Shown here in pieces: positions 1 to 3,039 of a DNA stretch of 3,039 nucleotides (positions within the stretch are counted from its first letter, which is position 1; each line of letters opens with the position of its first letter). Source of the stretch: Naegleria gruberi (taxonomy: Eukaryota); NCBI GenBank assembly GCA_000004985.1, contig GG739236.1. One strand, 5' to 3'. Made by a program: the position numbers and the translations under genes. Below the pieces are notes generated by a model, which saw nothing but the letters and a program-made list of their open reading frames with translations, ran no database searches and was not told where the DNA came from.

Positions 1-177
1 ATTGTTGTTTAGCTCTTGTCAATTGAATTTTTCGAAGATCTTTTCACTGAAATTTCTTTACCATTTAAATTTGCAAGATGATAATCAATGTCTAGTTCCA
101 TTTATAATATTAGATGTATCAATATCAAATAATGGTAATCTTTTAGATAAATCAATCAACTCCAAATTTTGTACAAC

Positions 178-468
178 CTAGACATTCACTGTAAATATAT
201 TTAATTCTGTTGATCTAATGGAATACCTCCGAATCAAATAAATTGTCATATTCAACAGAATCGTTCCCTTTCGATAACATTCCTCCGTAACACTGAATTC
301 AGGTTTTGTAATAATGTGCAAGTTGTTCATCCTCATATAAGCAATAGTTGTAATTTGTTCTATAATGAAATAAAATCCTATTTGAAATGAATATTTTGGG
401 TTCCTATTAGCTTTGATAGCACAACTTCCATTCTTGCATGTTGCATGAAAGCATGTTAACAAGTCCAT
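178..468 (-). CDS. Questionable small ORF (96 aa from the first ATG; the track's 112 aa begins at a TTG); hypothetical protein or spurious.
   Basis: The track ORF 178..516 actually begins with TTG (plus 514-516 caa). The first ATG is at 466-468 (plus cat), preceded on the minus strand by an A-rich leader (ctacaaaaacgaaaaaaacaacATGgac, A at -3). Against coding: codon usage is poor for a yeast gene (AGG x4, CGG, CGA, CTG, ATA x3, ACG x2), in contrast to the neighbouring 871..1407 gene. The composition is dominated by I/F/Y/N as expected from AT-rich non-coding DNA. The stop is TAG at 178-180. Confidence 0.3.
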   Translation of the reverse strand: MDLLTCFHATCKNGSCAIKANRNPKYSFQIGFYFIIEQITTIAYMRMNNLHIITKPEFSVTEECYRKGTILLNMTIYLIRRYSIRSTELNIFTVNV

Positions 469-768
469 GTTGTTTTTTTCGTTTTTGTAGTTCCAAAAGT
501 TACAATGAGTTTCCAACTAATTATTTTAAGCAACACGATCAAGAGGGTTAAATGAGAACATTGGAAACTAATATCCTCCCTTTTCCATATCCAATTGTTG
601 TTGTTGAGTTCTATTCGATAGTTAGATGATACTGAGGTGTTACCATTCCTCTTACTGACTTCTCAATAAGGTTGTTCCACAAATGTTAAACCAATTCAAT
701 TCTCAGAAAACCATTGAACTCTATTAAACTCCATTGTAAATATTGTAATCTTACTCAGTAAAAATTAC

Positions 769-775
769 TATAAAT
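769..775 (+). promoter_or_regulatory. Candidate TATA box (TATAAAT) for the 871..1407 gene.
   Basis: The consensus TATAAA lies at 769-774, about 97-102 bp upstream of the ATG at 871. That is a typical spacing for budding-yeast promoters. It sits in the 354-bp divergent intergenic region 517-870. Confidence 0.5.
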
Positions 776-798
776 TCAAATTGACCATTCTTTATGAT

Positions 799-819
799 AA
801 AGACAAAACAAAAAAACAA
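799..819 (+). promoter_or_regulatory. Poly(dA:dT) tract in the promoter/5' leader of the 871..1407 gene.
   Basis: The sequence aaagacaaaacaaaaaaacaa lies between the TATA box and the ATG. Homopolymeric dA:dT tracts are known nucleosome-excluding promoter elements in yeasts. Its position is consistent with the core promoter or 5' UTR. Confidence 0.4.
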
Positions 820-834
820 TATTCAATATTGAAT
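817..834 (+). promoter_or_regulatory. Tandem CAATATT x2 overlapping a 14-bp perfect palindrome (attcaatattgaat), about 40-55 bp upstream of the ATG.
   Basis: Bases 817-830 are caatatt caatatt (a direct tandem). Bases 821-834, attcaatattgaat, are their own reverse complement. A dyad of this kind is typical of a dimeric transcription-factor site, but a 14-bp AT-rich palindrome is not statistically remarkable on its own. Confidence 0.3.
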
Positions 835-870
835 TGTATCTGAAAACTCCTCAACAAGCTTTATATCAAA

Positions 871-1407
871 ATGACTCAACAAACTCACGAAGAATTATTC
901 AATGAAAACATGTGTGGAAGTGGTTTGGCATTCAAGAAGGTGGTTCGTGAATTATTCAACAATCGTATTGTTCCTGCTACTAAGAATCTTCAACAAGTCA
1001 ATTCAAAGATGATCATCTTGTTGGATTGGGCTTCTCTTGCTGCATTGCCAACTGAAACCAAATACAAGTATGGTGATAGATTTGCTGAAGATACCTTGTT
1101 GAATAATTGCATCAAATTCTTAACTGAAAGTCCAAGATTGAGTAATGTGAGTGAAATTGCCAAGGTTTTCATCAAGGATCCTGATTGTAAGGACGCTTTC
1201 ATGGGATTGGAAAAATTGATTTTCAGAGTTGTCCACAATGGTGATAGTAAGGAATCTTCTGGTTTCCTTGGATATTCTTACAAGGTTAATGGTACTGATT
1301 TGGTTGTCACTTTGGATTGCAATTTGACTCTTATTATGAAGGTTGCTAATGAAAGACAAAGTCCATCTGCTGATTCTGAAGCTAAAAAGTTGATTAATGC
1401 TTTCTAA
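871..1407 (+). CDS. Protein-coding gene for a 178-aa soluble protein of unknown function. I cannot confidently place it in any family.
   Basis: ATG start at 871 in a yeast-like context (ctttatatcaaaATGact, A at -3, A-rich leader); TAA stop at 1405-1407. Codon usage is strongly biased toward yeast-preferred codons (Leu TTG x many, Arg AGA, Gly GGT, Ala GCT, Ser TCT, Lys AAG, Glu GAA, Gln CAA, Phe TTC), with no in-frame CTG, CTA or CTC. A TATAAA sits about 100 bp upstream. No signal peptide or TM-like hydrophobic stretch is evident. It is the longest ORF in the window and is very unlikely to be open by chance in AT-rich DNA. Confidence 0.85.
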   Translation: MTQQTHEELFNENMCGSGLAFKKVVRELFNNRIVPATKNLQQVNSKMIILLDWASLAALPTETKYKYGDRFAEDTLLNNCIKFLTESPRLSNVSEIAKVFIKDPDCKDAFMGLEKLIFRVVHNGDSKESSGFLGYSYKVNGTDLVVTLDCNLTLIMKVANERQSPSADSEAKKLINAF

Positions 1408-1447
1408 TTTTGTAAAATGGCAGTACTTAATGAATCAATATTGAAAA

Positions 1448-1525
1448 ACCAACGGGGGGAGACAACCGGATATTTTTTCAGCACAGGGAGGGTCTTCCCG
1501 CCAACTACTATATTGGGAACTACAG
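1448..1525 (+). repeat. Left arm of the inverted-repeat pair (partner 2062..2133); core agggtcttcccgccaact[a]ctatattgggaactacag.
   Basis: The reverse complement of 2062..2133 aligns to 1448..1525 as follows. accaac(g/agtc)gggga(g/gg)gacaaccgg is followed by a diverged block (atattttttcagcaca vs ctggtaga). Then agggtcttcccgccaact is identical for 18/18, then comes one a/t mismatch, then ctatattgggaactacag is identical for 18/18. Weaker similarity continues inward (atacaNNaaacaaa, to about 1540/2045) and outward (gaatcaat vs gaaccaat, to about 1431/2150). The arm is locally GC-rich within AT-rich DNA. Confidence 0.7.
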
Positions 1526-2061
1526 ATACACAAACAAACCGTCCATTTTTTAACTTTTTGCAATAACCATTCGAAAAAGAACCAATTTGTTCACCTAACA
1601 ACTTTATTTAAAGAATTTCTTTATTTCATGAAGTAATTGTTGTGTTTTTATTTGTTTTTCCTCTTTTGGAAATTATGCACTAGCATGAAAGCTGGAAATT
1701 AGTCTCAACTAATTTAGCTCGTTTTCAATTCTCTAATTGAATGGATACAATCCAAGTCTAGAGATGGTGGAAAACAATGGTTAGATGACACAGCCTTCGG
1801 TTCATTTCTCATTGAGGATGATTTGCCTGGTTAATAGATAAATTCCAGGTGTGTCTATTTGCATTAAAATTCGAAACTATTTTTCATCAATTTCCTTTTT
1901 TGATCACCCAAAGCAAAATGCAAACATGTAAAAAAATACTTTGCTATTGTTATGAAGAATTACAAGACAAATCCAAACCGGACCAAAACATTCAGATAGA
2001 AATGCTATATTCCCACCAATTTATTGATTTTAAACCACAACTTTCTTTGTTTTAATGTATG

Positions 2062-2133
2062 CTGTAGTTCCCAATATAGAAGTTGGCGGGAAGACCCTCT
2101 CTACCAGCCGGTTGTCCCTCCCCGACTGTTGTA
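2062..2133 (-). repeat. Right arm of the inverted-repeat pair (partner 1448..1525).
   Basis: See the left arm. The two arms are in opposite orientation and separated by about 536 bp (1526..2061) of AT-rich sequence that has no ATG-initiated ORF of meaningful length. Confidence 0.7.
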
Positions 2134-2311
2134 AAGTGGTGATTGGTTCTCAGCAAAAATGCACAATCTTTGTTATTGAGAATTTGTCAGCAGAGCTAGA
2201 AGATTGGACTTGCAAACAATCATTGGATTTACTTCTGGGTTTCTGTTGAAACAAAGTTGAATTTATTTGATAAATATCTAATATTCTTCGCCTCATTCAA
2301 AAATTCCTTCA

Positions 2312-2333
2312 ACCTTTTTCAATTGAAAAAGGT
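2312..2333. repeat. Perfect 22-bp palindrome acctttttcaattgaaaaaggt (dyad centred on CAATTG).
   Basis: The reverse complement of 2312-2333 equals itself, and symmetry breaks at 2311/2334 (a vs c). Expected occurrences of a perfect 22-bp palindrome in 3 kb are well below 0.01 even allowing for AT bias. It could form a hairpin of about 9 bp with an AATT loop in ssDNA or RNA, or act as a dimeric protein-binding site. Confidence 0.6.
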
Positions 2334-2730
2334 CTACAAAATGCATCTTGATCCCAACTCAATAGGCTATTGTTCATTGTGACAGAAGAACTTTGTGTAC
2401 GGAGCACATTCAAATAAGAGACATAATTTTTGAGAAGGAGCAGACATCACCCTTAGTTTCCCTTAGAATTTTTGATTCGCACTCTGTATTTGAGAACCAT
2501 TTGTTAGTAATATTTATGGAGCTAACACTCTGTATCAGTACTATAAAGAGTATAACGACCAATATTTCAAAGCTTCAAATCATAGACATTGCCTATCAGA
2601 TTTTGACTTTTTGTGAGTTGAGTACAAGAACCTTAATGGCACAATTCAAAATTTATTTGGAAATGTGCACTAGACTCGATTCGAAAATGGATAAATTGGA
2701 TGTTCTGATACTATTATTCTATCTCGCTAA

Positions 2731-2781
2731 ATTGTTATTGAATCCATTGTTATTGTTATTGAGTTGACCTTATTGTTGTAC
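2731..2781 (+). repeat. Simple-sequence tract based on the motif TTGTTA/ATTGTT (attgttattg ... attgttattgttattgag ... ttattgttgtac).
   Basis: This was seen directly. A similar short tract, ccaattgttgttgttgagtt, is at 591-610. It is a low-complexity microsatellite-like sequence. It accounts for the L/N-rich C-terminus of the spurious track ORF 2393..2767. Confidence 0.45.
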
Positions 2782-2903
2782 ATTTGTGTTTTTAAAAGTT
2801 AAACTGGTGATTTTCTTATATACATTAACGTTAGAATTATTTTGTATGGTACATTAAAAATACAATGACCTAGTAGCTGTTATGGTGGTATTTACAATCT
2901 CTA

Positions 2904-3038
2904 TTTTTTCTTTAGGTTTTGCTCAATCTTGGCATAGTAATCAGTGGTTTGAATCCAATCCATAAATGTTTCATTGACATGCTTTTTGGAAAAGTGATTG
3001 CGATGTATGTTCTTGGAATGCAAATGATGTTGTCCTGG
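2904..3038 (-). CDS. Possible 3' end (C-terminal 45 codons) of a minus-strand gene that continues beyond the right edge of the window.
   Basis: There is an open frame on the minus strand from the window edge (first full codon plus 3036-3038) down to a TAG stop at plus 2901-2903. Translation: PGQHHLHSKNIHRNHFSKKHVNETFMDWIQTTDYYAKIEQNLKKK*. Forty-five open codons in AT-rich DNA is mildly improbable by chance, and codon usage is moderately yeast-like (TTG, AAG, CAA, GAT, TAC, ACC/ACT). The 20-codon ORF on the opposite strand (ATG at 2979) is in the same phase, so the two readings cannot be distinguished here. Confidence 0.25.
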
Positions 3039-3039
3039 A

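What the first reader, a model, noticed from the sequence alone, without database searches (positions are those of the whole stretch)
1431..2150. Inverted-repeat pair with a near-perfect GC-rich 37-bp core bracketing about 536 bp immediately 3' of the gene
Two arms in opposite orientation (1448..1525 and 2062..2133) are about 80% identical overall. Each contains a 37-bp core, agggtcttcccgccaact-N-ctatattgggaactacag, identical at 36/37 positions. The flanking parts of the arms have accumulated substitutions and indels (a 16 vs 8 bp block; g vs agtc). Conservation of the core against decay of the flanks suggests either recent gene conversion of the core or functional constraint, for example a protein-binding site or a small RNA structure. 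The arms are GC-rich islands in AT-rich DNA and can form a short GC hairpin (ggga...tccc). In the two copies the partner segment is ggggaga or gggaggg, and either can still pair with the conserved tcttccc. That is weak evidence compatible with an RNA stem. The overall architecture is what a MITE or foldback element looks like: TIR-like arms, a short AT-rich interior with no transposase, sited at the 3' end of a gene. I could not find a target-site duplication, and the arm boundaries are gradual rather than sharp. An ancient inverted segmental duplication is therefore an equally good explanation.
Basis: seen in the sequence. Interest (0 to 1): 0.6.

Follow-up and report, generated by a model that had tools for sequence, protein, structure and literature searches.

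The report
Inverted repeat behind a Naegleria gene
A real pair of roughly 105-base inverted repeats flanks about 500 bases of non-coding DNA just behind a multi-copy Naegleria gruberi gene; it looks most like a decaying transposon-type relic or a small inverted duplication, and nothing indicates that it has a function.

Summary
The inverted repeat is real and far above chance: 41 nt at 39/41, arms 1448-1538 and 2046-2133, 507 unique bases between them. The window is a complete 3,039-bp unplaced scaffold of Naegleria gruberi NEG-M. Its only credible gene, NAEGRDRAFT_54911, belongs to a family of at least 11 copies, some decayed.

The "conserved core against decayed flanks" is mostly an effect of indels. 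Substitution identity is similar in all alignable blocks (86%, 95%, 92%; p = 0.41). The outer parts differ by four small indels and one replaced linker, all outside the core (P = 0.02-0.05).

I found no known RNA family, tRNA, significant RNA fold, compensatory base pair, target-site duplication, transposase remnant or third copy. Five related loci (about 10 kb) lack the arms, and their 3' flanks match nothing in the window. No collection I could search holds the N. gruberi genome, so copy number, the decisive fact, is untested.

Best reading (about 0.4): relic of a non-autonomous, MITE-like or foldback element. Rivals: local inverted duplication (0.25), two insertions of a short dispersed repeat (0.17), functional RNA or binding-site pair (0.1). 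Interest is low.

The parts
871..1407 (+). Neighbouring gene NAEGRDRAFT_54911 (178 aa, no known domain), one of at least 11 N. gruberi paralogs. Context only, not part of the repeat.
   Evidence: Identical over 178/178 residues to P0016, whose contig is 3,039 bp, the same length as the window. Paralogs. No Pfam or PHROGs match.
1431..1447 (+). Weak outer extension of the left arm (GAATCAAT against GAACCAAT in the right arm). Uncertain.
   Evidence: The profile alignment reaches 1431 and 2149. Also seen in the global alignment.
1448..1469 (+). Left arm, outer block 1 (ACCAACGGGGGGAGACAACCGG).
   Evidence: 19 matches, 3 substitutions and two 2-nt indels against 2108-2133. The outer-only alignment is reached by 1 of 500 shuffles.
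1470..1484 (+). Left arm linker (15 nt, contains T6). Not alignable with the 5-nt linker of the right arm.
   Evidence: It falls in the loop of the only consensus hairpin.
1485..1525 (+). Left arm core, 41 nt, 39/41 identical to the right core, with no indels.
1526..1538 (+). Left arm A-rich tail (ATACACAAACAAA). Similarity ends here.
   Evidence: 12/13 matches with two indels. Sequence further inward is no better than shuffles.
1539..2045 (.). Unique AT-rich spacer (507 nt, 31% G+C) with no supported coding capacity and no known RNA.
   Evidence: Six-frame segments of 1408-2300 match no protein at E <= 10 and no Pfam family. No Rfam match at gathering score; only chance-level hits (E 4-10) elsewhere in the window. 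No similarity to the related loci.
2046..2061 (-). Right arm A-rich tail (reverse complement CATACATTAAAACAAA).
2062..2102 (-). Right arm core, 41 nt.
2103..2107 (-). Right arm linker (5 nt).
2108..2133 (-). Right arm outer block 1 (reverse complement TACAACAGTCGGGGAGGGACAACCGG).
2134..2150 (-). Weak outer extension of the right arm. Uncertain.

Best explanation
The segment 1431/1448 to 2133/2150 (about 690-720 bp) is most likely the decaying relic of a non-autonomous, MITE-like or foldback-type DNA element. It has two terminal inverted arms of about 105 bp, relatively G+C-rich, around a non-coding AT-rich body.

What is shown: the arms, their extent, their roughly 92% substitution identity, the absence of coding capacity, and the ability of the single strand to snap back.

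What is inferred: the arms once served as binding and cleavage sites for a transposase supplied in trans. The element is now immobile and drifting neutrally, with substitutions spread evenly and indels concentrated in slippage-prone G-runs and A/T-runs. It has no present function. The left arm starts 24 nt after the stop codon, so it probably lies in or just beyond the 3' UTR of NAEGRDRAFT_54911. A read-through transcript could therefore form a long hairpin.
For: - Both arm boundaries fall at the same positions in the two copies (block 1 to tail), as expected for the two ends of one unit.
- The size (about 700 bp), the non-coding interior and the absence of any transposase, RT or integrase trace fit a non-autonomous element.
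- The arms are 51-54% G+C in 31% G+C DNA, so they do not look like local intergenic sequence.
- The scaffold has 1,632 nt after the gene with no homology-supported gene. Relatives of the gene have 32-413 nt to the next gene, which suggests DNA was added here.
- The window is a whole 3-kb unplaced scaffold and its gene has at least 11 near-identical to decayed copies, the usual signature of repeated DNA.
- DNA transposons and many unclassified repeats are reported in N. gruberi (PMC12344493, read). Repeat content is about 5% (PMC9928731).
- The snap-back fold is -114 kcal/mol against -68 +/- 4.7 for shuffles. This is expected from the repeat itself.
Against: - No target-site duplication above chance. 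At about 8% arm divergence, a duplication of 6 bp or more should still be visible.
- The outermost ends are the least similar part of the arms and the best-kept stretch lies on the inner side. Typical terminal inverted repeats show the opposite.
- No second copy of the element was found anywhere. The core is absent from JGI metagenomes, IMG/VR and GTDB genomes and from about 10 kb of related heterolobosean DNA. None of these collections holds the N. gruberi genome, so this is weak.
- In the paralog-type locus L001, upstream non-coding DNA is still 84% identical. Homology stops exactly at the stop codon, not at the arm boundary 24 nt later, and does not resume right of 2150. A simple insertion into a conserved flank is therefore not what is seen.
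Confidence: 0.4

Rival explanations
1. Local inverted duplication. A stretch of about 105 bp was copied in reverse orientation about 500 bp away by template switching or break repair, with no mobile element involved. The copies have since diverged, possibly with occasional gene conversion keeping the indel-free core alike.
For: Only two copies are known, both in this window. There is no target-site duplication and no transposon protein trace. Substitution divergence is even along the arms, as expected for one duplication event followed by drift. This gene family's loci do rearrange: a 51-nt upstream segment lies in the opposite orientation in L001.
Against: It does not explain why a 51-54% G+C segment sits in 31% G+C DNA in the first place. 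Small inverted duplications with a spacer of several hundred bp are much rarer than transposon-derived repeats (general knowledge). Indels are as frequent as substitutions (5 events against 6), which is high for plain drift.
Confidence: 0.25
2. Two separate insertions, in opposite orientation, of one short dispersed repeat of about 105 nt. Candidates are a SINE-like retroposon or the conserved end of a longer element. Each would end at the inner side in an A-rich tail.
For: Both arms end inward in A-rich tracts (ATACACAAACAAA and CATACATTAAAACAAA), after which similarity stops abruptly. The best-kept part adjoins that end, as in families whose 3' end is recognised for copying. The scaffold looks repeat-associated.
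Against: No tRNA, 7SL, 5S or other RNA-gene similarity. I saw no A-box or B-box by eye. Neither arm has flanking direct repeats above chance. A-rich tracts are common in this 32% G+C DNA. Two hits within 540 bp would need a high copy number, and none was seen in about 10 kb of related DNA. The left arm carries an internal T6 that would stop RNA polymerase III.
Confidence: 0.17
3. Functional pair. The two arms are genes for a lineage-specific small structured RNA, or paired binding sites for a protein such as a recombinase that inverts the spacer, with the 41-nt core under constraint.
For: The arms are G+C-rich islands in AT-rich DNA, as RNA genes are in such genomes. All 4-5 indel events avoid the core (P = 0.045, or 0.021 with the linker). 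An 8-bp stem joining block 1 to the start of the core can form in both copies, with the variable linker in its loop.
Against: Folds are no better than shuffles on either strand (z between -1.7 and +0.2). There are 0 compensatory pairs and no Rfam match. Substitution rate in the core does not differ from the rest (p = 0.41). Five related loci lack the arms. No recombinase is encoded nearby.
Confidence: 0.1
4. Assembly or cloning artefact on a low-coverage 3-kb scaffold.
For: The window is an entire 3,039-bp unplaced scaffold of a Sanger draft assembly.
Against: Chimeric or foldback artefacts give perfect palindromes. These arms differ by 6 substitutions, 4 indels and a replaced linker, and they are separated by 507 nt of unique sequence.
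Confidence: 0.03

Closest known systems
MITEs (miniature inverted-repeat transposable elements, such as the Stowaway and Tourist types)
   Same: Under 800 bp, non-coding AT-rich body, inverted arms at both ends, located next to a gene's 3' end, able to fold back.
   Different: No target-site duplication. Arms of about 105 bp are long for a MITE. The extreme outer ends are the least similar part. Copy number is unknown, and no parent transposase family can be named.
Foldback elements (Drosophila FB type) and other long-inverted-repeat elements
   Same: Long, imperfect inverted arms with internal length variation around a non-coding middle.
   Different: FB arms are built of tandem subrepeats. 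No subrepeat structure was found here. Dispersed copies are not shown.
Inverted pairs of short retroposons (such as inverted Alu pairs)
   Same: Two units of about 100 nt in opposite orientation a few hundred bp apart, each ending in an A-rich tract, able to form a hairpin in a transcript.
   Different: No polymerase III promoter boxes, no similarity to tRNA, 7SL or 5S, and no flanking direct repeats.
Small genomic palindromes or inverted duplications kept alike by gene conversion
   Same: Two copies only, a spacer between them, and a highly similar stretch beside more altered stretches.
   Different: The arms are far shorter than well-studied cases, and the patchiness here comes from indels rather than from different substitution rates.

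Membership tests
MITE / non-autonomous DNA transposon | Terminal inverted repeats | tested here: met
   Arms 1448-1538 and 2046-2133. Alignment score 81 against 18 +/- 2.3 for shuffles. 92% identity in alignable blocks.
MITE / non-autonomous DNA transposon | Small size and no coding capacity | tested here: met
   About 700 bp. Six-frame segments match no protein at E <= 10 and no Pfam family.
MITE / non-autonomous DNA transposon | Target-site duplication flanking the element | tested here: not met
   Best exact match is 5 nt (AAAAA), and 67% of shuffles do as well. Best match with one mismatch is 7 nt, and 77% of shuffles do as well. Duplications of 2-3 nt cannot be judged.
MITE / non-autonomous DNA transposon | Many dispersed copies with the same sharp ends | not testable with these tools
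   The N. gruberi genome is in none of the searchable DNA collections. The core is absent from JGI metagenomes, IMG/VR and GTDB genomes and from about 10 kb of related DNA.
MITE / non-autonomous DNA transposon | Best match between the arms at the extreme termini | tested here: not met
   The outermost 17 nt align only weakly. The best-kept 41 nt lie 37-54 nt inside the outer ends.
SINE or other short retroposon | Head related to tRNA, 7SL or 5S RNA, with polymerase III boxes | tested here: not met
   ARAGORN finds nothing. Rfam finds nothing at E <= 10 on the arms alone. No A-box or B-box seen by eye.
SINE or other short retroposon | A-rich or simple-repeat tail | tested here: inconclusive
   Both arms end in tracts of 13-16 nt that are rich in A, but the surrounding DNA is 68% A+T.
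SINE or other short retroposon | Direct repeats flanking each copy | tested here: not met
   Best 6 nt exact or 8 nt with one mismatch for each arm, reached by 42-66% of shuffles.
Known structured RNA family (Rfam 15) | Match to a covariance model | tested here: not met
   No match in the arms at E <= 10.
Structured RNA gene in general | Fold more stable than shuffles, and compensatory base changes between copies | tested here: not met
   z = -1.1, -1.7, +0.2 and -1.6 for the four strands. 13 consensus pairs with 0 compensatory and 2 one-sided changes. With only two sequences the power is low.
Helitron 3' end | G+C-rich hairpin 10-12 nt before a CTRR terminus, inserted between A and T | tested here: not met
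   By eye: the small hairpin GGGAG/GGTC/TTCCC lies about 24 nt before the inner end, which reads CTACAG followed by A or C rather than CTRR followed by T (sequence).

The most novel reading that the evidence does not exclude
The arms are two convergent copies of a Naegleria-specific functional unit of about 100 nt. Its 41-nt indel-free core would be a protein-binding site (for example for a domesticated transposase or a recombinase that flips the 507-nt spacer) or part of a small hairpin RNA whose loop is free to vary.
Probability: 0.08. Interest if true: 0.45.

Novelty: new member of a known kind. Interest (0 to 1): 0.15.

Why it matters
If it is a transposon relic or a small inverted duplication, it matters little. 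At most it would add one unclassified repeat to a genome whose repeats are mostly unclassified, and it might help explain why this 3-kb scaffold could not be placed in the assembly. It would matter more only if the arms proved to be numerous, transcribed or conserved across Naegleria species, and nothing here indicates that. The practical value of this analysis is the correction that the "constrained core" is largely an indel effect, together with the exact identification of the locus so that the decisive genome search can be run directly.

Tried and rejected
1. Third, decayed arm copy at 485-498 (TGTAGTTCC, hinted at by pairs D2 and I4), and a 10-mer in the 3' flank of L001. The arm profile gives E = 2-6, so both are chance.

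2. Arms as matching 3'-UTR elements of two convergent genes. The - strand ORF 2153-2296 (stop codon 2150-2152) abuts the right arm, but it and every other frame right of the arm match no protein. The family profile finds no decayed gene copy there (best E = 0.6 with 12 targets).

3. P0008 as a model of this locus with a long intron. Rejected: the window's ORF equals P0016 on a 3,039-bp contig, whereas P0008 lies on a 10,548-bp scaffold.

4. Empty-site test. The 3' flanks of L001 (93 nt) and L002 (324 nt) match nothing in 1408-3039 above shuffles. L001 is of the NAEGRDRAFT_54296 paralog type, so the comparison is with a paralog, not the ortholog.

5. Viral or giant-virus origin. There are no relatives of the gene or the core in IMG/VR. 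Three 17-mer hits are chance matches in G+C-rich phage contigs.

6. Structure of the neighbouring protein. The AlphaFold model has mean pLDDT 37.5, so no fold search was run.

7. Literature. No paper names such an element or these loci.

8. Correction. The column-based permutation test (p = 0.0003) and the counts used a hand-typed arm B string with two extra bases in the linker. One search, computed from the window itself, replaces them.

9. Limit of the protein-based searches. They cannot detect a core-only match (13 residues), so one search excludes only longer shared stretches.

Full report
**What the window is.** The only ORF with homologs (871-1407, + strand) matched several Naegleria gruberi "predicted proteins" at 64-94% identity. 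A cluster look-up then showed that it is identical over all 178 residues to NAEGRDRAFT_54911 (XP_002668185.1). That protein's contig is 3,039 bp long, exactly the window's length. The window is therefore a complete, tiny, unplaced scaffold of the N. gruberi NEG-M draft assembly.

The gene has no Pfam or PHROGs domain, and its AlphaFold model is unusable (mean pLDDT 37.5). It belongs to a family of at least 11 gene models in N. gruberi. These include an N-truncated copy on a 2,719-bp scaffold, a copy broken after residue 67 on a 10,548-bp scaffold, and a frameshifted copy. An exhaustive profile search of 1.84 billion representative proteins found only 9 clusters.

The rest of the window matches no protein in any frame (E <= 10 for 1408-2300; E <= 1 for the flanks) and no Pfam family.

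**The observation.** The inverted repeat is real. The repeat finder gives 1485-1525 against 2062-2102, 41 nt, 95% complementary, 536 nt apart. A local alignment scores 81 against 18.2 +/- 2.3 for shuffles and carries the similarity on to 1538 and 2046. The outer block 1448-1469 against 2108-2133 is significant on its own (1 of 500 shuffles). DNA further inward is not (111 of 500).

Each arm consists of an outer block, a linker, a 41-nt core and an A-rich tail, about 90 nt in all, or about 105 nt with a weak outer extension to 1431 and 2149. The arms are 51% and 54% G+C in DNA of 31-32%. The descriptive part of the finding is confirmed.

**Is the core specially conserved?** Counted by alignment columns, the core stands out. 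Counted by events, it barely does. Substitution identity is 19/22 in block 1, 39/41 in the core and 12/13 in the tail (Fisher p = 0.41). Over all alignable blocks the arms are 92% identical.

The flank "decay" consists of two 2-nt indels in the G-run block, two indels in the A-rich tail, and one replaced linker (15 vs 5 nt). These are sequence types prone to slippage. The only remaining sign of a special core is that all indels avoid it (P = 0.045, or 0.021 if the linker is counted as an event). An earlier column-based test (p = 0.0003) and the first event count used a mistyped string. One search supersedes both.

**RNA or known element?**
- ARAGORN finds no tRNA.
- Rfam finds nothing in the arms at E <= 10, whether the whole window or each arm alone is searched.
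- Each arm folds no better than shuffled sequence on either strand (z = -1.1, -1.7, +0.2, -1.6).
It has 0 compensatory changes and 2 one-sided changes. With two sequences this carries almost no weight.
- The whole segment snaps back as single-stranded DNA (-114 kcal/mol, z = -9.9). That follows from the repeat and says nothing about function.

**Transposon features.** There is no target-site duplication above chance for the pair treated as one element or for each arm alone, either exact or with one mismatch. Duplications of 2-3 nt cannot be judged. There is no trace of a transposase, reverse transcriptase or integrase.

A candidate third copy at 485-498 and a 10-mer in L001 are not significant (E = 2-6). 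The extreme outer ends are the least similar part of the arms, which is not typical of terminal inverted repeats.

**Comparison with related loci.** Six loci for relatives of the gene were retrieved from ENA and Logan assemblies: L001-L006 (L003 and L004 are the same locus) and L010, about 10 kb of distinct DNA. None contains anything like the arms (best E = 0.25 with the core-only profile, 0.83 with the full arm profile).

In L001, homology to the window runs from 240 nt upstream of the start codon (84% identity) to exactly the stop codon. It then ceases and does not resume right of 2150. L001's protein resembles NAEGRDRAFT_54296 more than the window's gene, so this is a comparison with a paralog, not a true empty site.

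In the relatives the next gene lies 32, 316 and 413 nt downstream. Here, 1,632 nt follow the gene without any supported gene, which suggests that non-coding DNA has accumulated at this locus.

**Search for further copies.** The core is absent from JGI metagenomes, IMG/VR and GTDB genomes. Three 17-mer hits in IMG/VR are chance matches with unrelated flanks. Relatives of the gene are absent from IMG/VR and the JGI metagenomes.

None of these collections contains the N. gruberi genome, and the NCBI N. gruberi genes are not in the contig index. Copy number in the host genome is the decisive fact, and it could not be tested.

The literature gives only general statements: about 5% repeats, both DNA transposons and retrotransposons present, and most repeats unclassified. 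No paper mentions these sequences or loci.

**Verdict.** This is a genuine but ordinary-looking inverted repeat.
- The best-supported reading (about 0.4) is a decaying non-autonomous element of MITE or foldback type. The two arms share both boundaries, the body is short and non-coding, the arm composition is foreign to its surroundings, and the scaffold shows every sign of belonging to repeated DNA. The missing target-site duplication, the poorly matching outer ends and the unknown copy number keep confidence low.
- A local inverted duplication (0.25) and two insertions of a short dispersed repeat (0.17) remain open.
- A functional RNA or binding-site pair (0.1) has only the indel-free core and a possible hairpin in its favour.
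- An assembly artefact is unlikely (0.03) because the arms differ at many positions.

I did not file it as a member of any named family. A single BLASTN against the N. gruberi assembly would settle the matter.

Noticed in passing
window 1-3039: The window is an entire 3,039-bp unplaced scaffold of the N. gruberi NEG-M assembly (gene NAEGRDRAFT_54911). Both ends are therefore assembly breaks, as is usual for repeated or divergent-haplotype DNA.
   Followed up: yes
window 871-1407; proteins P0001-P0003, P0006-P0008, P0015-P0019: The 178-aa ORFan gene has at least 11 copies in N. gruberi at 64-99% identity, on different scaffolds. They include truncated (P0008, P0017) and frameshifted (P0006) copies, and two models that skip 9 and 18 residues (P0002, P0003). 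Worldwide the family has only 9 clusters at 50% identity. In another heterolobosean sample, relatives sit in ordinary compact gene contexts (for example next to a G-patch gene in L005).
   Followed up: partly
window 21-71 against L001 1-51: A 51-nt segment upstream of the gene is 90% identical between the window and L001 but lies in the opposite orientation, while 631-1407 is collinear. This could be an inversion between paralogous loci, another small repeat, or the start of a neighbouring gene (- strand ORF 12-101).
   Followed up: partly
window 1-3039: CpG is strongly depleted: 33 observed against about 80 expected.
   Followed up: no
window 2312-2333: A perfect 22-nt palindrome, ACCTTTTTCAATTGAAAAAGGT (pair I8).
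   Followed up: no
window 2904-3038, - strand: An open frame runs off the right end of the scaffold and stops near 2901. It could be the C-terminus of a convergent gene, but it matches no protein.
   Followed up: partly
P0014 (1,211 aa): A weak hit (E = 2e-4) to a long protein made of six near-identical tandem repeats of about 190 residues. Each repeat matches family positions 44-92. The origin is unknown and the hit may be spurious.
   Followed up: no
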